DNA from: Leucoraja ocellata
Lineage: Eukaryota
Assembly: GCA_036785375.1 (NCBI GenBank)
Contig: JAWMAR010000006.1
Location: 992,001-1,056,000, forward strand
DNA length: 64,000 bases
Reading direction: 5' to 3'
A program made the translations under genes and the position numbers. Below are positions 426 to 62,687 of this stretch, piece after piece. The notes beneath the pieces were generated by a model that did no database searches, was not told where the DNA came from, and saw nothing but the letters and a program-made list of their open reading frames with translations. Each line of letters opens with the position of its first letter. Positions within the stretch are counted from its first letter, which is position 1.

Positions 426-610
426 AGGTACTCAAAAATGCTGGAGAAACTCAGCGGGTGCAGCAGCATCTATGGAGCGAAGGAAATAGGTAACGTTTCG
501 GGCCGAAACCCTTCTTCAGACCTTCGCTCCATAGATGCTGCTGCACCCACTGAGATTCTCCAGCATTTTTGTGTACCTTCGATTTTCCAGCATCTGCAGT
601 TCCTTCTTGA
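426..610. mobile_element. Short palindromic Penelope-derived unit with 16-bp TSD
   Basis: acaggttattgaagga at 410-425 and 611-626. Contains an inverted copy followed by a direct copy of the PLE terminal unit. Confidence 0.88.
492..519 (-). ncRNA. Minimal hammerhead ribozyme motif (PLE type)
   Basis: CUGAAGA-A-GGGU(UUCG)GCCC-GAAAC-GUU, with a possible AGGU/ACCU stem I. Confidence 0.65.
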
Positions 611-9485: not shown

Positions 9486-10260
9486 GTGATGTTTCGAGTT
9501 GGGTTCCTTCGCCAAACTGATTGTGGTATGGGGAGGAAGCTGGAAGAGGGATGAGGATGGGACAAAGCCAGAGGAAGAGATGTGAGTGGGAATTGATGGA
9601 GGGAGATATAGGAAAAGGGGAGAGAAGGGATAAATAAGGGGGAGAAAGGGGGGGTTAGTTACCTAAAATTTTGAGAGTCCAATGTTCATATCATTGGGTT
9701 GTAAGTTACCCAGATGAAATATAAAGTGCTATTCCTCCAGTTTCCATGTGACCTCACTCTGGCAATAGAGGAGGCCCAGGACAGAAAGGTTAGTATGGGA
9801 GTGAGAAGGGTCGTTAAAAACATTAGCTACTGGGAGATGGTCGACAAGCGGTTGATGGTCAGTGAAATGGTCGACGATTCTACATTTGATCTAGCTGATG
9901 TAAAGGAGGACGCATCGACAGCACCTGATGCAGTAGATGCAGGAATAGTTTCTTCCCCGCTGTTATCAGGCAACTGAATCATCCTACTACAACTAGAGAG
10001 CAGCCCTGAACTATCTACCTCATTGGTGACCCTCAGACTACCTTTGATCGGACTTTACTGGCTTTACCTGCACAAAACATCCCTGCCCTTATAACCTGCC
10101 CTTATCATGTATCTACACGCTGTAAATGGCTTGATTGTAATCATGTATTGTTTTTCTGCTGACTGTGTAGCACACAAAAAAAGCTTTTCACTGTGCCTCA
10201 GTACACGTGACAATAAACTAAACTGAACTGGTAGATGATGTTAGCGGAGGTGCACGTGAA
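9486..10260 (-). mobile_element. Penelope-like element 3' part (GIY-YIG endonuclease remnant and terminal region)
   Basis: The minus strand reads FTCTSANIIY / IYCIRCCRCVLLYI / LSVLGLLYCQSE..KLEE.HFIFHLGNLQPNDMNI. It is interrupted by a LINE tail at 9940-10230. Confidence 0.85.
9940..10230 (+). mobile_element. Rex1/Babar-like LINE 3' end with 7-bp TSD
   Basis: RNSFFPAVIRQLN then 3' UTR ending caataaactaaac. gtagatg at 9933-9939 and 10231-10237. Confidence 0.8.
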
Positions 10261-10915: not shown

Positions 10916-11197
10916 AGGGCCTGTCCCACTTGGGCGTCATTTGCACGTCATTTATGCGATATCATTTACGCGTCACAACGTGCGCATCGTGACGCGCACG
11001 TGATGTGAGCACAGTGCGCATTACGCACGCATGGTGCACATTACATGCGCTTGCTGTGCATTACGCGCGCATGGTGCGTGGTGACGTAGGCAGTGATGCG
11101 CGGTGGCACGCGGCGGCGTCCCAGGATTTAGGGATGTACAAAATCTTTGCGCGCTATCTGCGTGACGTGCAGATGACGCACAAGTGGGACAGGCCCT
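10916..11197. mobile_element. PIF/Harbinger-type MITE, internal type A
   Basis: TIR agggcctgtcccact extended to ~35 bp. TAA/TTA flanks. Internal ~20-bp gtgcgcattacgcgcgcatg repeats. Confidence 0.85.
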
Positions 11198-11734
11198 TTA
11201 GAGAGTATCCGCGCATAAAGTGCCCATTAGGCCATTGCATTTCAGGGACATCAGGAAGAGATAGCTCTATCGACAACTGGCAGTTAACTCCGATGTGTAA
11301 ACTAACTGAGCCGCCAGGGAAATACACAAACTGCCTTGGAACTCAGATTACATCCAGAGGGAAATCATGGCCGGAAGGACGGAAGACTACAGCTGTAATT
11401 GGGATGGTGAACATGAGAGATAAAGTGGCTGCCATCTCCCTGACACTGATCTCCTTACAGCCGCTGAAGAGAAACACTTATGAAATGGGTCAGTGGCTGT
11501 ACATTCCCCACATGGTGATTAAAATAAAATAACTTCATGAAAATAACATAAGTACTTAAACTCTGGTGTTTGTAATCTGGCTGAGAACGATATTTAGAAA
11601 AGGGCAATAAACAAAGACAAAGACAAAGATCGCGGCATTTTAGCTATTTCCTACCTAAGGTATAACAGTCAATTAGAGCATTGCATCCTGGACTCCAGAG
11701 ACTGTACACAATGACAAAGGAAGCAACATTGGCT

Positions 11735-17689: not shown

Positions 17690-17931
17690 GTGTAGGAAGG
17701 AACTGCAGATGCTGGTTTGTTAACAATGGCTTGCTTCCTTTATCATCGTTGTTTATTTTGCATATCTTTCATTCATTTGTTCTATAGCTCTCTACATCAC
17801 CATCTATATATTTAGTTTCATTTTCCCCTGACTCTCGGTCTGAAGAAAGGTCTCGACCTGAAACATCATCTATTCCTTTACTCCAGAGATGCTGTCTGAC
17901 CCACTGAGTTACTCCAGCTTTTTGTGTCTAT
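17690..17931 (+). mobile_element. Short Penelope-derived unit with 14-bp TSD
   Basis: cttcaaaagttctt at 17676-17689 and 17932-17945. Short inverted 5' piece, and hammerhead motif at 17840-17867. Confidence 0.85.
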
Positions 17932-20873: not shown

Positions 20874-22460
20874 CTAGACTAAGTGGGACCTGTCGGGTAC
20901 CATGTTCACACGGGAGGGTTGGTCCTCCAACGCAATATTCCACATCTCCACCAATTCCAATATTGGTGGCCAGTGGGGGGTGGGGGGGGGGGGGGGGCTT
21001 TCTGGAGTGTTTGTATGGGTGTTGTGGGCTGAAGGGACTGGTTTCCAGAGGGGTAGTATGGACATTGTGGGCCAAATGGATTCTTGGGGTGGCAGCTCAG
21101 TCACTCAAGCCTGATGTGCTGGCAGCTCACTCACGGCTGATGGGCTGGCAGTTGACTCACGGCTATTCCTTGAAATTCCATTTCAAGCAGGGTGCAAGGC
21201 CACCAAATTCAAATGCAGTTTCCTACCACTTCCAGCAGGGTGCAAGGCCACAAAATTCAAGTGCAGTGTCCGACCACTTCAAGTAGGGTGCAAGGCCACT
21301 GAATTCAAGTGCAGTTTCATACCACTTCAAGCAGGGTGCAAGGCCACCAAATCCAAGTGCAGTTTCATACCACTTCAAACAAGGTACAAGTCCACCAAAC
21401 TCAAGTGCAGTTACATACAATTTCAAGCAGGGTGCAAGGCCACCAAACTCAAGTGCAGTTTCCTCCCACTTCAAGCAGGGTGCAAGGCCACCAAATTCAA
21501 ATGCAGTTTCATACCATTTCATGCAGGGTGCAAGGCCACCACATTAAAATGCATTTCAAGCAGGGTGAAAACACCATATAACCACCATAAAATCACACAA
21601 AACACCACACTCACAGTGCAGTAGACATTCAGTGTGTTCAGTTGATTCACAGCTCAGACAGAGTCGTGACCTTTCCCTCCCCCATCTTACAGAGACTGAG
21701 CCACACCCACACTTCGGGGTTTTATAATCCCTCCCCCCTCCCACCGGAAGAGGCGTGGCCTTCATGGCGTGATTGACAGGAGTGAGATTCTCAACATTTT
21801 TTAAACACTAATAACAATTTTATTTTTCATTGATGGGAAGAATCCTCTGCACCTAATGAGTGGAGGGGGACTTAGTAAGATGGTCAACAATCACAGCCGT
21901 AAGTGGTAGCATGTTATCTAAAATCAATATACAGTGCAAACCGGAAGTTGTCAAGTTTAGACTTTATCATTTGCCATTTCAAACAAACCACCACCAACCA
22001 TTTGGTGTGCTTCATTTCAAGTCAACCACCACCAACCATTTGCTGTGCTTTATTTCAAACCAACCACATTTTCATTTTCAAACCACATTAAGGGCACTCA
22101 AGGTCAGTAAAACCACACTCACAGTTTAGTAGACATGTGTTCAGTGTTACTCACAGCTCAGGCTGAGAGACGTGGCCCTCTCGTTCCCCCATCTTGCAGA
22201 GACTGACCGAGGCACTCAACACTTCCGGGTTTTATAGTCCCTCCCAATGGGGCGTGGCCTTCAGGAGAGAGAATATCAACATTTTTTAAACACTAATAGC
22301 TCTTATGTTTCATCGATGGGAACAATCCTCTTGTCCTGCACAGCGGAGGGGGACTCTGAGTAAAATAGCAAAAATCACGGCCATAAGTGGCAGCGTTTTT
22401 TCAAAAATCAATATACAGAACAACGGGAAGTGGTCAAAATCAGGCTTTTAGTAATATAGA
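20874..22460 (-). mobile_element. Non-autonomous Helitron inserted in a CR1 LINE
   Basis: On the minus strand it starts TC(TATATTACTAAAAG) and ends CTAG, between host A and T with no TSD. Imperfect hairpin gggacctgtcgggtacc lies ~11 bp from the 3' end. CR1 sequence resumes on both sides. Confidence 0.85.
21181..21567. repeat. 48-bp minisatellite (~8 copies) inside the Helitron
   Basis: Unit ttcaagcagggtgcaaggccaccaaattcaagtgcagtttcataccac repeated in tandem. Confidence 0.95.
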
Positions 22461-22843: not shown

Positions 22844-23809
22844 CATTGGAAAAGATTGTCAAGAAATGTAATTTGAAAGGTAAAGTCTGTCTGATATTCC
22901 TTGACGTGAGCAGATCTGTCATTTGCCACTTTGCATGGAATGGAGTTGCAGGTCCTCCTTGTCATTCACTCACAGATACAAACCGTTATTGATTTCAGTG
23001 CTTAAAACCTGATTCTTCCGTCCTTGAAAGCTGCATAATGTAATGGGCAGTTGCATCAATTTCATCTCTGAGAAATATGATCATTTTCAAATCTGCTCTG
23101 AGCCCTGGATCAATAGAACAGGTAGGCTAAATGGTAACGGCTGGCTCAATAGCTGCATTGCGTGGTCTGCACTATCCAGGGACTGCTCTTACCGACATTA
23201 ACCTAGATTGAAACGTTTTCCCATTGTCTTTAATACATTATTGAGCTAAAAAGACAAAGTTTCCTATTCATAGTCTCCCTCCCTTTACATTCCACTTCCT
23301 AAAGATTCATTTTCATGCCTTCTGTGGTAGCAGCAATGCATTAGGTACAATTAAGACTTTAGAAATACAAAGTGGAAACAGGCCCTTCAGCCCACCGGGT
23401 CCATGCCAACCAGTGATCACCCCCTACACTAGCATTATTGTACAACCACAGAAGCCAATTAACCTAAAACCTGGACGCCTTTGGAATGTGGGCGGAAACC
23501 GAAGCACCTGGAGGACCTCAACGGGTCAGGCAGCGTCTGTGGAGGGAATGGAACACTCTGAAGAAGGTCCCAAACTGTTGTCTGTCCATTCCCTCTACAG
23601 ATGCTGCCAGATAAGTTGAGTTCCGTCAATGCTTTTGTGGTCTCCAGAGTATTAAGTCACAGATAAAGAGGAGACACATTCTTATCTACCGTGTTAGATG
23701 GGAAGACAGAGTTAAGGAAAACATTTCTTAAAGCCACGAGTGTAGAAAGTTTTGTTATAAAAGCAGATACACTGGATTAAAAGGAATTGGCAGAATGAGA
23801 TGGAGTCCT

Positions 23810-24660
23810 TAAGGAAAGCAGGTGTGGTCAGGCAGCAGTGGGAATCTGCGGACTTGTAACTGTGTTTGTGACTGAGACAGAGAAGTCAAGAAAGGGAAGG
23901 ATAGCATCAGAGAGGACGATATGAAGGTGAGAGCAGGGTGTAAATTGGCAACAAAGGTAATGTATGTGCTGCCTCCATGGTAATCGGTAAACAGTCGAAG
24001 GAGGGGGGCTGAATAGAATTGAAACAAGGACTGTCTCGTGTACCTAACACAGAAACAAACATACTGTAAACTTGGGCCCGTGCAGGTTCCCATTGTACAC
24101 CTTCAACTAAGGAAAGTGAGTTTAGTTTAGTTTAGTTTAGAGATACCGAGCATGGAAACAGGCCCAATGAGTCCACACCGACCAGCGATCCCCGTACACT
24201 AGTACTATCCTACACACTAGGGACAATTTCCCATTTTTACTGAAGCCAAATTAACCAACAAACCTCTACGTCTTTGGAGAGTGGGAGGAAACCAGAGCTC
24301 CCGGGGGAAACACATGTGGTCGTACATGAACTCCGTACAGACAGCGCCTGTAGTCAGGATCGAACCCGGGTCTCTGGCACTATAAGGCAGCAACTCTACC
24401 CCTGCGCCACTGTGCTGCTCAATGAAGGCTTGAATGAAAAGTCTTGAATGAAATGTAGCTGAAGGTAAGAGGCAAGTGATAGCAAATGTTGGTAGAGTGA
24501 TCTAGTTGGATGAAGTGGCGTTCCCTCAAACGTTGCTGGCATGGAATGGGGGTGGAAGGGGGTGATGTCCAAAATGAAGATGGTCCTGCTGGGACTAAGA
24601 AATTGGAAACTGTGCAATTAAAGAGGGCATCAGATGCAAGTGAGTAGGGAATGGACAAGT
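23810..24660 (-). mobile_element. Degenerate Penelope-like RT fragment, split by a V-SINE
   Basis: MGTCTGPS...SLFQ...ANLHPALTF...PFL resembles the PLE RT pattern MGTRMGPSYA...FHPALKFT...LPFLD. Confidence 0.7.
24120..24417 (-). mobile_element. HE1/V-SINE
   Basis: Full match, inserted in the PLE RT remnant. Confidence 0.9.
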
Positions 24661-25054: not shown

Positions 25055-25187
25055 TGTGTGGGAAGGAACAGCGGATGCTGGTTTACACCAAAGACTGGCA
25101 GAAAATGCTGGAGTAACTCTACAGGTGAGACAGCATCTCTGGACAAAAGGAAAAGGTGACATTTCGGGTCGAGACCTTTCTTCAGAC
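25055..25187 (-). mobile_element. Penelope-derived terminal unit with near-intact hammerhead motif
   Basis: Minus strand reads gtctgaagaaaggtctcgacccgaaatgtc. Confidence 0.75.
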
Positions 25188-33159: not shown

Positions 33160-33251
33160 GTCTGAAGAAGGGTTTTATCCCGAAACGTTACCTATTTCCT
33201 TCGCTCCATAGATGCTGCTGCACCCGCTGAGTTTCTCCAGCATTTTTGTGT
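33160..33251 (+). mobile_element. 92-bp Penelope-derived hammerhead unit with ~10-bp TSD
   Basis: Flanks agatatcagt / agataccagt (1 mismatch). Starts exactly at gt-CTGAAGA. Confidence 0.78.
33162..33189 (+). ncRNA. Minimal hammerhead ribozyme motif (PLE type)
   Basis: CUGAAGA-A-GGG(UUUUAU)CCC-GAAAC-GUU. Confidence 0.6.
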
Positions 33252-41046: not shown

Positions 41047-41278
41047 AGGCACAAAATGCTGGAGTAACTCAGCGGGTCAGGCAGCATCTCTGGAGAATAT
41101 GGATAGGTAATGTTTTGTGTCAGGACCCTTCTTCAGACTAAAGAGTCTGAAGAAAGTTCCTAACCTGAAATGTCACCCATCCAGAGAGGTTCTCCAGAGA
41201 TGCTGCCTGACCTGCTGTTATTCCAGCACTTTGTGGCTTTTTTGAAAGCCAGTATCTGCAGTTCTTTGTTTCTACATC
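41047..41278. mobile_element. Head-to-head palindromic Penelope-derived unit
   Basis: Two degenerate hammerhead cores on opposite strands around 41140. Confidence 0.8.
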
Positions 41279-45071: not shown

Positions 45072-45461
45072 AGGGAAGGAATGGGCGATGATTCTTCTTC
45101 CGACTGAAAGTCATGGGAAAGGGAAATGAGAGATATAGACGATGATGTAGAGAGATATAGAATAATGAATGAAAGATATGCAAAAAGTAACGATGATAAA
45201 GGAAACAGGCCATTGTTAGCTGTTTGTTGGGTGAAAACGAGAAGCTGGTGTGACTTGGGTGGGGGAGGGATGGAGAGAAAGGGAATGCCGGGGTTATTTG
45301 AAGTTAGAGAAAGCAATATTCATACCACTGGGCTGTAAGCTACCCAAGCGAAAAATGACCTGCTGTTCCTCCAATATGCATTTAGCCTCACTCTGATAAT
45401 GGAGGAGACCTAGGACAGATAGGTCAATGTGGGAATGGGCAGGAGAATTAAAGTGTTTAGC
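45072..45461 (-). mobile_element. Penelope-like element: endonuclease C-terminus + 3' terminal region
   Basis: AKHFNSPAHSHIDLSVLGLLHYQSEAKCILEEQQVIFRLGSLQPSGMNIAFSNFK-stop, followed by a 3' region ending in a partly deleted hammerhead motif. Confidence 0.88.
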
Positions 45462-45474
45462 AGCGGACACATTT

Positions 45475-46000
45475 GAATCATAGAATCATATAGTGTGGAA
45501 ACAGGCCCTTTGGCCCAATTTGCCCACACCGCTCAAAATGTCCCAGCAACACCAATCCCACCTGCCTGCATTTGGTCCATATCCCTCCAAACCTGTCCAT
45601 GTACCATGTATCCATGTACCTGTCTAACTGTTTCTTAAATGTTGGCAGAGACCCTGCCTCAACTACCTAATAGAAGGAGATCTAATAGAAGCACATAAAC
45701 TTATGATTGGCATTGATATAGACCTTTTTCCCCAGGATGGAAATATCAAGGGCTAGACGACATCGCTTTAAGGTGAGAGGGGATTTGCAGGGCAAGCTTT
45801 TTATATTGAGAGTGGCGGATGCCTGGAACAGTGGTCATGTACGTAGTTACAATAATGGCATTTAAAAGGATTTTAGACTGGCGTTCAGATATGCTGTGAA
45901 TGGGGGGATATGGGGCATGTGCAAGCAACTAAGATTGGTTTACCTTGGCATCATATTTGACACAGCATTATGGGCCGAAGGGTCTGTACTTTACGCTCCA
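45475..46000. mobile_element. Two CR1 3' fragments joined back to back (minus 45475-45668, plus 45669-46000)
   Basis: CR1 tail motifs on both strands. Another piece lies at 44880-45060. Confidence 0.75.
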
Positions 46001-52616: not shown

Positions 52617-53015
52617 CCCAGCAGTTTGATTTTTTCATGGCTTATGCCTGACACTGGGTGTGTTAATAACTCTGGGTCACTGGGGAATACCATCGGAGTT
52701 TCAACAACCATGTCATGGAGTATTGGGAACCATGGCTGCGTAGGCCAGTCGGGTACTATCAAAATACCTGAAGCAGAGTCCATTTGTATTTTGCGTAGTA
52801 CCCGACTGATGAGGCAGAAGGGAGGATTGCATAGAAGACGAAATGTCCCCAATCCAGCGCGAACGCAACTACCGCTGCTGCCTCAGGGTCTGGTTCCCAA
52901 GCGACATACATAGGTACCTGGTGATTTAGCCTTGATGCAAATAAATCGATATCTGGCGTGCCATATTGCTTGATAACTTTTGCAAATATTTTGGGGTTTA
53001 ACATCCATTCGATGT
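52617..53015 (-). pseudogene. DIRS DNA N6-adenine methyltransferase-like domain (frameshifted)
   Basis: EWMLN...PDIDLFASRLNHQ...AFALDW...YA/x/PPF..I.RVLRKI...ILIVPDWPTQPWFP is the MT domain typical of DIRS1 pol. Frame change near 52825. Confidence 0.85.
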
Positions 53016-54530
53016 TGTCATTAAATTTACGTGACCTGGTGTCTGCCACTGTATTTAGCTTACCTTGCATGTAAGTTGCTGATAGCCAAATATGTCTTTC
53101 GACACACCATTGCCAAATTGTGTTGACCAACTTGTCGCATGATAACAATTTAATGCCGCCCATATGGTTAATGTAGGCCACCACCGTAGTATTATGTATT
53201 TGTAACCGTACATGCAAGTGATGCATATTTGTTGCATATGCTTTTAAATCATAAAAGGCACCCAACATCTCTAGATAATTAATGCCCAGTGTAAGTAGTA
53301 ATGATGACTCTGGGTTAGTCCATTTACCACCTGTGCTGGATATGGAGTTAGTTGCTCCCCAGCCTTGAGCACTGGCATCTGTTTGGATAACTAACGTAGG
53401 GTTAGTGATGATAATAGGGCTGAAACTATGCCGAACGTTTTTTGCCCACCACTGTAGTTCTGATATTGCTTCAGTGGGTAACTTCATGACACAATCATAG
53501 TGACCTGCATGTTGTTTTAGTGCCTGTACCTTTGCTCTTTGTAAGTTTTGATAGTGCAAAGGTCCGAATTGTGTAGCCGGAAATGCTGCTACCATTTTCC
53601 CAATTACTCTTGCTACTTGTCGAATAGTTGGTCGTTCGTTGACCATTGAATTGTTGCATGATTGTGCCAATTCAACTGTTTTGTCTCTTGGCAATGTTAC
53701 AGTGATGTGGACTGAATTAATTGTGAAGCCCAAGTGGTCCATGGTTGTGGATGGCTTCAACTTAGATTTATCTGGATGTAAGACAAATCCCAGGGGTTCG
53801 AACAACTGTTTGGTAGCTGATACAGCTGACATAGTCAATTCCATGGTCTTGCCTACTATTAAGATATCATCAAGATATGCCATGACAATATGTTTTTGTC
53901 TTCTTAATATTGCCAGAGCTGGTTTTAGTATCTTGGTGAATAATCTTGGGGCTGATGTTAACTCATTGGGTAATGCTTTAAACTGCCATAGCTGCCCCAT
54001 CCAGGTAAATTTCAGGTATCTGCTATGATCCTTGTGAATGGGTACTGAATAGTAAGCATCTTTAAGATCAATGCTTGCCATGAAGTATCCTTTGGAAATT
54101 AGTTGTTTGGCAGTAACAAAGTTTCCATTTTGAAATGTATATACTTAACAAACATATTTAGTGAAGTTAAGTCAATGATGATGCGACATCCACCATATTT
54201 TTTGGTTTTAGTAAATATATTTGATACAAATTCCAAGGGTTCATGTTTTGTTTTTTCAATGATACCCTTTGTAATTAGTCTCACCAGTTCAGCTTGTCCC
54301 TCTCGTTTTTCTTTAACTGAGAGGGAAAATACCCTCTGGGGTGAATGTTGAACTGGTGGCAATTTTTCTAGTATGAATTGTATTTTGTATCCACGAATGC
54401 CATTGAGTATATACTGATCAATCGTGATAGACTCCCATGCTTCTTTAAACAGGTGTAATCTACCCCCTGTTAGTATTAAGCCCCTACTTTCTATATGCTG
54501 GTAGGAACCAGACCCACCTACCTCCATGGT
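52853..54530 (-). pseudogene. DIRS pol: reverse transcriptase + RNase H (frameshift near 54100)
   Basis: GGRLHLFKEAW, GCRIIIDLTSLN, FKMET, SIDLKDAYYSVPI and YLDD (RT). TDASAQGWG, INYLEMLGA and NTVADTRSR (RNase H). The expected DN motif reads HN. Confidence 0.93.
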
Positions 54531-54891: not shown

Positions 54892-54958
54892 TGTCGCGCA
54901 TGCGTGCTGAGCGGGCTCTTCACGTAGTCACTCGCGTGACTCCGAAGTAAAACAAAGT

Positions 54959-54986
54959 CTGAAGAAGGGTTTCGGCCCGAAACGTC
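54959..54986 (+). ncRNA. Minimal hammerhead ribozyme motif (PLE type)
   Basis: CUGAAGA-A-GGGU(UUCG)GCCC-GAAAC-GUC. Confidence 0.7.
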
Positions 54987-55157
54987 GCCTATTTCCTTCG
55001 CTCCATAGATGCTGCTGCACTCGCTGAGTTTCTCCAGCAATTTTGTGTACCTGCTGAAGGAACTCAGTAGGTTAGGCATTTGTGGCAAGAATGAACTTAA
55101 AGCATTTCAGATCAGGTGATATCATTAAATGTAATGGTTAATTGTTTGCATTTTCTC

Positions 55158-57088: not shown

Positions 57089-57587
57089 TTGTAGACTAAA
57101 TGATTAGCTTTCTGTCCTAGATGTCATCAGCAAGCTTGCTGAGTTTATTTGACTTTTATCAGAACCTGTACTTTTCATTGCATTTAGTATTTTGTGGTGA
57201 TACTGGATTCAAATTCTCAAGTTACAGTAGTGTTTCTAGAATTCATTCCTACTGAATTATTGACGTGGGCTTCTAGATTACTAGCAATGCAAACACCATG
57301 TTGCTGTGCTTGATTAAGGAATGAAGGGCTGCATGTTTTTCGGAGTTGTTTTGCATCACTCCTGAAATTTGATCCCTTGCACTCTCCATCAGTGCTTTTT
57401 TTTGTGATGGGACATGCCAGTGTGGAGTACCAGCATCTCTAAAAAGGTTAAATGTCATTAAGCCTGGCAAGTAACCAGAGGAAATGTGCATGAAGGAACT
57501 GCAGATGCCGGTTTAAACTGAGGATAGACACAAAATGCTGGAGTATCTCAGCGGGACGGGCAACATCTCCGAAGAGAAGGAATGGGT

Positions 57588-57615
57588 GACGTTTCGGGTC
57601 GAGACCCTTCTTCAG
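57588..57615 (-). ncRNA. Minimal hammerhead ribozyme motif (PLE type)
   Basis: CUGAAGA-A-GGGU(CUCG)ACCC-GAAAC-GUC. Confidence 0.7.
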
Positions 57616-57768
57616 ACTGACGTCAGACAGGACGGAGATACAATGATAAGGAATTGTGAAGGTGTGAAAACAGGGCCAAGGGAATGGAGATCAAGGAAAA
57701 TGATCAGTGTTAGCTGGGAGAAGGAAACAACAAAGCAAACAGAGATAAAATGTAGTCGGAGACATTAA

Positions 57769-58014
57769 AGGGCCTGTCCCACTTTCACGACCTAATTCAC
57801 AACCTTTTTTACTCGTGGACATTTTTCAACAGGCTAGAAAAATGCCCTGACCTACTTGATGCTACGAGTCCCTACGACTAGCATCACAGCCTGCTACGAC
57901 CTACCCACACCTCCTATGACCTCCTACGACCTTGTGACGACCATGCTGCGAGTATGAGTCAAGGGCAAACTCGGCAGAGGTTGTGAATTAGGTCATGAAA
58001 GTGGGACAGGCCCT
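57769..58014. mobile_element. PIF/Harbinger-type MITE, type E, inside a Penelope 3' region
   Basis: ~35-bp TIRs, perfect TAA TSD (57766-57768, 58015-58017), CTACGAC repeats. Confidence 0.9.
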
Positions 58015-58658
58015 TAAGACTGGTCGGAGAACTGGAGAGAGGGATGGAGAGAGAGGGAAATCAAGGGTTACTTGAAGTTAGAGAAGTCAATACAGTTGAG
58101 GGGAGGTTTTTTAATAGATAGATAGTTGGACAAAGGGCAGAGATGAAAAGACAGAAGGTGCGAGACAAAAAGATTGAAGAGTAGCAAATTGTGACCATTT
58201 GAACCATTAAATTGTGAAGCTAGATGAAGGAATGTTGGCAGAACAGGAGGGAGAAGGGGAGATAACAATGTGTGTCCTGGTGGGGTATAGGAGAGTAGGG
58301 GAACCAAGAACCAGAGATCATAGGTTTAAACTGGGAGGGGAAAGATTTAATAAGAACCTGAGGGGCAATTTTTGGTGGGTATATGGAATGAGCTGCCAAA
58401 GGAGGTAGTTCAGCGAGATACAATAACAGCTACTTGAATTTGGCTTGATTACATTCATGTATGTAACATCTGATTTAATCGGATAGCATGCTAAACAAAT
58501 CTTTTCACTGTACTTCGATACACGTCACAATACTAAATCTGTATTTTAATTTTAATTGCTATTTATTTTGTAACGAAAACTGAATGGACACTGGTTGAGA
58601 AATGTTTTTTTGTTTCCTCTGAGTATGCGAATACTCAGGAAATGACAATAAAGATTTA

Positions 58659-62481: not shown

Positions 62482-62687
62482 AACAAAAAAGCTGGTGAAA
62501 CTCAGCGGGTGAGGCTGCATCTAAGGAATAGACGATGTTTCGGGTCAAGACCCTTCTTCAGACTGAAGAAGCATCTCGACCCGAAACGTCGCCTATTCCT
62601 TTGCTCCATAGATGCTGCCTCACCCGCTGAGTTTCTCCAGCTTTTTTGTCTACCTTAAATTTTTCCATCATCTGCAGTTCTTTCTTA
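62482..62687. mobile_element. Head-to-head palindromic Penelope-derived unit with ~15-bp TSD
   Basis: Cores at 62534-62561 (-) and 62563-62590 (+). Flanks aacagtattcagata / aacagtacttagata. Confidence 0.85.

What the first reader, a model, noticed from the sequence alone, without database searches (positions are those of the whole stretch)
57586..57620. Very abundant minimal hammerhead ribozyme motif in the termini of Penelope-like elements
Seen: the motif GU-CUGAAGA-A-[stem II]-GAAAC-GUH-RC recurs about 25-30 times in 64 kb. The best copies are 492-519 (-), 17840-17867 (+), 25158-25185 (-), 33162-33189 (+), 54959-54986 (+), 57588-57615 (-) and 62534-62561 (-). Stem II varies while keeping pairing: GGGU-CUCG-ACCC, GGGU-UUCG-GCCC, GGGU-CUUG-ACCC and AGGU-CUCG-ACCU. 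Stem III is the loopless palindrome ACGU. Where PLE coding remnants are attached (9486-10260, 45072-45461, 57486-58092) the motif is on the coding strand, downstream of the GIY-YIG stop codon. Established: CUGANGA...GAAA...UH is the hammerhead core, and PLE terminal repeats carry minimal hammerheads with a palindromic stem III thought to cleave as dimers. Inference: at this density (about one per 2-3 kb) the genome would hold a very large number of such motifs, so any long transcript would carry many potential dimer partners. Caveat: stem I is only ~2 bp in most copies.
Basis: partly seen in the sequence, partly recalled or inferred. Interest (0 to 1): 0.8.

Follow-up and report, generated by a model that had tools for sequence, protein, structure and literature searches.

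The report
Penelope retrotransposon ends carrying minimal hammerheads
These repeats are the very numerous, mostly decayed end pieces of a known kind of jumping gene that carries a tiny RNA motif predicted to cut itself, and the sharp way the copies start and repeat likely records how this poorly understood gene copies itself.

Summary
The motif is real: it is the minimal hammerhead in the terminal repeat of a likely Neptune-type Penelope-like retrotransposon, a known arrangement (PMC4209133). A 92-nt terminus occurs 41 times in the window and 458 times per sampled Mb (about 1.6 million genome-wide, extrapolated). Only 4-6 window copies and 44-51 per Mb keep the whole motif. Stem II differences between copies fit CpG decay, not covariation (p=0.44). 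Master lineages do keep the core, and an old subfamily swaps a stem I pair on both sides. A young full-length parent (1221-aa RT plus GIY-YIG, two hammerheads 3946 bp apart) exists. 23 insertions are tandem copies with their own junctions, pointing to rolling or end-to-end reverse transcription. The hammerhead fold is predicted to be outcompeted, and RNA of a related species shows no ends at the cut site, so wide cleavage of host transcripts is unsupported. This scan noted the family and the sharp start before, on other DNA of this genome.

The parts
57586..57617 (-). Minimal type I hammerhead motif: stem I GU/AC, core CUGAAGA at 57615-57609, stem II GGGU-CUCG-ACCC, GAAA, stem III ACGU, predicted cut after 57588
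   Evidence: Sequence; core and all stems intact
57485..57587 (-). 3' part of the terminal repeat with tail; family 3' ends cluster about 95-105 and 129-136 nt after the core start, likely the two reverse-transcription start sites
   Evidence: two internal starts and the tail shown for the anole element in PMC11167929
57618..57765 (-). Pyrimidine-rich upstream part of the terminal repeat, ending in an Inr-like TCAGT inside a 10-nt palindrome
   Evidence: Sequence; the Inr reading is an inference from a recalled consensus
57769..58014 (.). Unrelated 246-bp element with terminal inverted repeats and TTA duplication inserted in the Penelope remnant (MITE-like)
   Evidence: Read by eye
58068..58094 (-). 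Last codons and stop of the GIY-YIG endonuclease
   Evidence: Translation, compared by eye with the C-terminus of the L164 protein; too short for tblastn
435..569 (.). Head-to-head pair of termini; the minus copy (492-521) keeps the motif
54956..55043 (+). Short copy of the young subfamily with intact motif, starting at the motif's 5' edge
33160..33246 (+). Short copy with intact core, starting at the motif's 5' edge
62486..62646 (.). Head-to-head pair sharing the base before the two cores; both motifs damaged
41050..41235 (.). Head-to-head pair of older termini
9666..9905 (-). GIY-YIG endonuclease remnant; downstream motif decayed
   Evidence: tblastn E=1e-15
45300..45476 (-). GIY-YIG endonuclease remnant; downstream motif has lost stem II and GAAA
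   Evidence: tblastn E=2e-16 and sequence
23736..24093 (-). Penelope reverse-transcriptase remnant
   Evidence: tblastn E=7e-12

Best explanation
The motif is the minimal hammerhead in the terminal repeat of a likely Neptune-type Penelope-like retrotransposon, the scattered copies are mostly decayed insertion products, and the ribozyme likely acts only inside the element's own RNA-protein complex rather than in host transcripts. Shown: family identity, abundance, decay pattern, 3' ends at two sites, a 5' hot spot 2 nt before the core, seamless longer-than-unit copies and tandem arrays with private junctions. Inferred: (1) the element protein starts reverse transcription inside the RNA about 95 or 130 nt after the core; (2) many templates have a real 5' end at the motif's edge, most likely a start site of an internal promoter, so run-off gives 100-135-bp copies; (3) priming on both target strands gives the head-to-head pairs; (4) the enzyme recopies circularised or end-to-end-jumped RNA, giving the arrays; (5) in full-length RNA the two hammerheads likely pair with protein help, cut and are ligated into a unit-length circle, which would explain why long copies pass the edge without stopping.
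For: Parent element: 1221-aa ORF with RVT_1 (E=1.4e-6) and GIY-YIG (E=8e-4 on the C-terminal part), both below Pfam's cut-offs, between two termini 3946 bp apart; C-x4-C-x2-C linker as in Neptune/Nematis (PMC8557442 passages). Decay: core columns about 0.9 identity like other constant columns, CpG columns about 0.67-0.73. Constraint on masters: core constant in 6 subfamily consensuses apart from CpG calls; an old subfamily has U2.2-A1.2 for G2.2-C1.2 (7 of 10 against 22 of 208, p=3e-5, one event). 5' hot spot: 4,425 of 25,986 young copies are preceded by non-A plus GT, 2,468 by non-C plus AGT, 12,079 run on upstream; estimate 24% end at -2; 30 of 30 checked are true truncations, 14 with a target duplication near the edge. 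0 of 21 long multi-pass copies begin there (p=0.002 at 25%). 23 arrays or partial tandems, 12 with two or more identical junctions. Head-to-head 80 pairs against tail-to-tail 7. Internal promoter, internal initiation, two-strand extension and protein-assisted cleavage are shown for other Penelope elements (PMC2377424, PMC11167929).
Against: No cleavage, start site or circle was measured for this family. No 5'-end peak at the cut site (695 against 633 at a control position), and circle-type junctions at the cut site are not significantly enriched (5 of 28 against 1 of 18, p=0.38). Array junctions mostly lie far from the cut site and one array (L253) lacks the core, so circularisation or jumping does not need the ribozyme. 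Most array 5' sides lie at -32 to -194, so many templates start upstream of the proposed start site. The hammerhead dimer is about 26-31 kcal/mol above the best predicted fold. Several junctions share GT with the target, so microhomology shapes the hot spot. Four old copies have A9 replaced by C. In the anole element cleavage was not needed for insertion in vitro (PMC11167929). Conserved bases could serve a promoter or protein binding instead of catalysis.
Confidence: 0.6

Rival explanations
1. The -2 hot spot comes from a reverse-transcriptase stop or microhomology joining on ordinary long RNA (for example at the upstream palindrome or a protein-bound fold), with no RNA 5' end there; long copies come from tandem read-through transcripts and the hammerhead plays no part.
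For: Upstream palindromes ending at -2 give the best predicted RNA dimer. Target duplications often include the GT. Tandem full-length loci exist. Cleavage was dispensable in vitro for the anole element (PMC11167929).
Against: Long copies and arrays pass -2 repeatedly without ending there. Short -2 copies are common in lineages whose long copies have only a 4-nt palindrome (small and selected sample). Both 3' starts give the same 5' end. Some junctions abut -2 with no shared bases (L202).
Confidence: 0.25
2. One reading: dispersed motifs in long host transcripts pair up and cleave them.
For: About 150,000-230,000 intact motifs by extrapolation; the terminus is common in poly(A) RNA of a related species (16,148 of 12.9 million reads laid).
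Against: Intact copies only about once per 20 kb over both strands; neutral decay; competing hairpin; no begin or end pile-up reaching a fifth of depth at the cut site (other species); weak or absent activity of such dimers in vitro (PMC4209133; 8 of 9 Xenopus dimers inactive in 10.64898/2026.07.22.740005).
Confidence: 0.08
3. The -2 end is the 5' end of an excised intron (GU) that holds the hammerhead.
For: The end starts with GU; AG acceptor-like sites lie downstream; Penelope elements have an intron near the hammerhead (PMC4209133, PMC2377424).
Against: The donor match is very weak by recalled consensus; no such RNA joint among those shown (332 further joints not shown); copies include sequence past the nearer acceptors.
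Confidence: 0.07

Closest known systems
Minimal hammerheads in terminal repeats of metazoan Penelope-like elements (Cervera and De la Pena 2014, PMC4209133)
   Same: Type I core, extra base before stem II, G10.1-C11.1 pair, palindromic loopless stem III, position in both terminal repeats, most motifs dispersed as single truncated copies.
   Different: Stem II of 4 bp and stem I of 2 bp, shorter than in the schistosome motifs; about 150,000-310,000 intact motifs or cores by extrapolation against about 4,000 (coelacanth) and 9,000 (Xenopus) reported, by different methods.
Neptune-clade endonuclease-bearing Penelope-like elements (PMC8557442)
   Same: RT then GIY-YIG, C-x4-C-x2-C linker, partial tandems, inverted 5' copies, optional 30-40-bp tail.
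   Different: No tree was built, so Nematis is not formally excluded; the ORF is long (1221 aa) with a proline-rich insert; the sharp 5' end was not seen in the passages read.
Poseidon element of the anole (Frangieh et al. 2024, PMC11167929)
   Same: Two internal 3' start sites about 35-40 nt apart downstream of the hammerhead; copies span the cut site uncut.
   Different: There the ORF starts in stem II; here the first ATG of the long ORF lies about 165 nt after the core start.
Animal non-LTR retrozymes (10.64898/2026.07.22.740005)
   Same: Tandem 200-370-bp units that contain a Penelope terminal-repeat hammerhead.
   Different: Arrays here each have a private junction and appear to arise in one insertion from the autonomous element's RNA; they are not shown to be spreading families, and some lack the core.

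Membership tests
Minimal type I hammerhead | Core CUGANGA, GAAA, UH | tested here: met
   Focal copy intact; 91 of 251 spanning sample copies intact; constant in subfamily consensuses apart from CpG calls
Minimal type I hammerhead | Stem II closed by G10.1-C11.1 with one extra base before it | tested here: met
   no two-sided change found in stem II
Minimal type I hammerhead | Palindromic minimal stem III | tested here: met
   ACGU in all consensuses but the oldest, CpG-decayed one
Minimal type I hammerhead | Stem I | tested here: met
   2 bp only; two-sided change in one old subfamily
Minimal type I hammerhead | Hammerhead fold accessible | tested here: inconclusive
   Not the predicted fold as monomer or dimer; the model ignores tertiary contacts and protein
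Minimal type I hammerhead | Self-cleavage as a dimer | not testable with these tools
   Needs an assay; genomic and RNA traces are inconclusive
Endonuclease-bearing Penelope-like element | Single ORF with RT and C-terminal GIY-YIG | tested here: met
   both Pfam hits below curated cut-offs, motifs visible in the sequence
Endonuclease-bearing Penelope-like element | Terminal repeats, partial tandems, inverted copies, tail | tested here: met
Neptune clade | CX2-5CxxC linker before the endonuclease | tested here: met
   Seen in L144 and L164 proteins; shared with Nematis
Neptune clade | Placement in an RT tree | not tested
   No reference proteins at hand
Non-LTR retrozyme | Two or more tandem units each with a whole hammerhead | tested here: not met
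   Not for the focal copy; met only by some arrays elsewhere in the genome

The most novel reading that the evidence does not exclude
The 100-135-bp terminus is a self-contained mini-retroelement, with an internal promoter overlapping the hammerhead and its own reverse-transcription start, amplified to Alu-like numbers; the same enzyme rolls on circularised RNA, so retrozyme-like arrays are born in single insertions and hammerhead-made unit circles give the longer-than-unit copies.
Probability: 0.3. Interest if true: 0.7.

Novelty: new member of a known kind. Interest (0 to 1): 0.38.

Why it matters
The role of the hammerhead and the origin of tandem and inverted copies in Penelope elements are open (PMC8557442, PMC11167929). 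This genome holds a young intact parent and over a million insertion records, which makes the circle, internal-promoter and two-strand-priming models directly testable and offers a route from Penelope RNA to retrozyme-like arrays. The motif itself is known, and nothing here shows an effect on host RNA.

Tried and rejected
Rfam scan at E up to 10 gave no hammerhead family among 29 matches; minimal motifs may escape those models. Copy-level stem II covariation rejected for all four pairs. 5' ends at the cut site: no peak; two spurious matches (L286, L296) were dropped from the 7 of 28 before the test. A splice acceptor at -1 with host exons was rejected because upstream flanks are unrelated, carry target duplications and show no AG bias. 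An HDV-like fold at the 5' edge was looked for by eye only and not found. The A or T at the centre of head-to-head junctions (21 against 2) does not separate twin priming from fold-back, since both spellings are one motif on two strands. No RNA holder on record was listed for the stretch; a closer look at splice joints stayed open. No solved-structure match for the RT-endonuclease part; no Atlas result. Lunse et al. 2017 was not held and is cited only through the review PMC6765202. Searches for this family in print found no paper on it; subscription papers, Repbase/Dfam entries and all supplements were not seen and may describe it.

Full report
Observation. The minus strand at 57617-57586 reads GU, CUGAAGA, A, GGGU-CUCG-ACCC, GAAA, CG, UC, AC: a minimal type I hammerhead with a 2-bp stem I. 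The loose core pattern occurs 9 times against 0.89 expected. A profile of the surrounding 92-nt repeat finds 41 hits in the window, 458 in 100 arbitrarily placed 10-kb stretches of the own genome and none in reversed sequence. That extrapolates to about 1.6 million in 3.44 Gb; the sample came from the 300 largest contigs. Exact motifs of two subfamilies occur 21,383 and 25,986 times. Positions below count from the C of CUGA as 0.

How many are intact. Of 458 sample hits 251 span the motif, 91 keep all core bases and 51 also keep the stems; a stricter descriptor gives 44 against 0-1 in three shuffles, all from this one family. In the window the numbers are 22, 9, 6 and 4. Core columns decay like other constant columns and CpG columns decay fastest, including the CG of stem III. 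Six subfamily consensuses from 343 copies keep the core. Seven changes inside the motif fall on tolerated positions (rough, post hoc p=0.002); this count sets aside two CpG calls and a stem I change in the oldest cluster. That stem I change is matched on the other side (U-A for G-C; 7 of 10 against 22 of 208), one event in one old subfamily; four of those old copies have A9 replaced by C. So master elements were likely constrained and single copies were not.

What it belongs to. Upstream of long copies lies a GIY-YIG C-terminus. A young family has a 1221-aa ORF with RT and GIY-YIG between two termini 3946 bp apart and a C-x4-C-x2-C linker, typical of Neptune and Nematis (PMC8557442, passages). 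The 2026 preprint found only Neptune and Poseidon in vertebrates (10.64898/2026.07.22.740005, parts 1-3 of 5), hence likely Neptune. That the host is a skate or ray is recalled from this repeat and echoed by earlier scan notes; no call determined it. The focal copy is a 3' remnant interrupted by a MITE-like insert.

3' ends. Copies end at about +95 to +105 or +129 to +136. This matches the two internal starts and tail shown for the anole element (PMC11167929, parts 1-2 of 4).

5' ends. In the sample 92 of 276 motif-bearing copies had no shared sequence beyond 12 nt upstream. Among the 25,986 young copies, 4,425 are preceded by non-A plus GT, 2,468 by non-C plus AGT and 12,079 run on upstream; 7,014 are in other classes. 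About 24% end at -2 and about 4% at -3. All 30 checked were true truncations, 8 inverted and 14 with a duplication near the edge, often sharing the GT. The focal subfamily gives 3,493 of 21,383 (not checked for point variants). Reads and contigs of two related organisms also have loose ends at -2 and -3. At the predicted cut site there is no peak: 695 against 633 at +31. Head-to-head pairs (80) far outnumber tail-to-tail pairs (7) among 499 hits.

Multi-pass copies. A pattern just past the 3' starts gave 149 places; 30 came as loci and 18 more stretches were fetched, 6 of them chosen because they looked like arrays. With loci, 21 long copies run seamlessly through the upper terminus or begin elsewhere, and none begins at -2. 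For 5 the stretch ended near +270 to +306, for 9 the start lay beyond it, and they may not all be independent. Another 23 insertions (one) are tandems of a fragment with a private junction, 12 with two to four identical junctions, several bounded by target duplications read by eye. Their 3' sides lie at +201 to +586 (8 at +265 to +267) and their 5' sides mostly at -32 to -194, three at -3 to 0. One lacks the core. This points to repeated copying of a circularised RNA or exact end-to-end jumps, independent of the cut site. Two further arrays have a 61-bp unit starting at the cut site, but such junctions are not significantly enriched (5 of 28 against 1 of 18).

Folding and RNA. In the two subfamilies folded, the purine-rich core pairs with the pyrimidine tract after the cut site or stem II forms out of register; stem II probability is 0.01 or less, and the hammerhead dimer scores -6 to -7 against -33 to -38 kcal/mol. 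In two poly(A) runs of a related species the terminus has depth near 5,000 against about 1-15 in the 5' part of the ORF, 85-87% of reads run on into unlike sequence, and no pile-up of ends is listed at the cut site. It is thus carried mostly as an uncut passenger, as far as another species can show.

Mechanism. Shown: identity, abundance, decay, both end distributions, arrays. Inferred: internal initiation at two sites; a template 5' end at the motif's edge, most likely from an internal promoter (TCAGT resembles a recalled initiator consensus; Drosophila Penelope has an internal promoter, PMC2377424 passages); two-strand priming for inverted pairs; rolling or jumping for arrays; protein-assisted dimer cleavage and ligation for seamless long copies. 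The last was proposed before (PMC4209133, parts 1-2 of 4; review PMC6765202, passages). Tandem read-through RNA with an enzyme stop at -2 remains the main rival. PMC3846280 (passages) explains head-to-head palindromes by self-priming on an antisense template, a further alternative not tested here.

Verdict. A new, very abundant member of a known kind. The motif is known; the end and array patterns are the informative part, were not found in the literature searches made, and the sharp start was noted earlier by this scan elsewhere in this genome, after I had found it here. Interest 0.38.

Noticed in passing
window 57769-58014: 246-bp element with terminal inverted repeats and TTA duplication inside the Penelope remnant; PIF/Harbinger-type MITE by recall. 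Similar ends seem to occur near 11000-11500 (translation).
   Followed up: no
window 52762-54144 (-): 461-codon open frame with an RVT_1 match (E=3e-15), DIRS-like by recall, with a 245-codon frame just upstream.
   Followed up: partly
L249, L257, L338, L341, L344, L347, L348, L349 (position +265 to +267 of the young element): 8 of 23 array junctions share this 3' side with different 5' partners; no splice signal seen; unexplained.
   Followed up: partly
L333 and L334: Two unlinked arrays with a 61-bp unit that starts at the predicted cut site.
   Followed up: partly
window 57617-57626 (-) and L164 just upstream of the core: 8-10-nt palindromes end at -2 in some subfamilies; the window one contains a CRE-like octamer (recalled); absent in others.
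   Followed up: partly
L143, L145, L147: Partial tandems of about 700-730 bp with the same junction and similar flanks at three loci; possibly carried inside a larger duplicated unit.
   Followed up: no
L164:2459-2492: A 34-nt duplication inside the hammerhead appears in RNA reads and in contigs of related organisms.
   Followed up: no
window 21115-21620 (+): Short tandem repeat giving a repetitive open frame.
   Followed up: no
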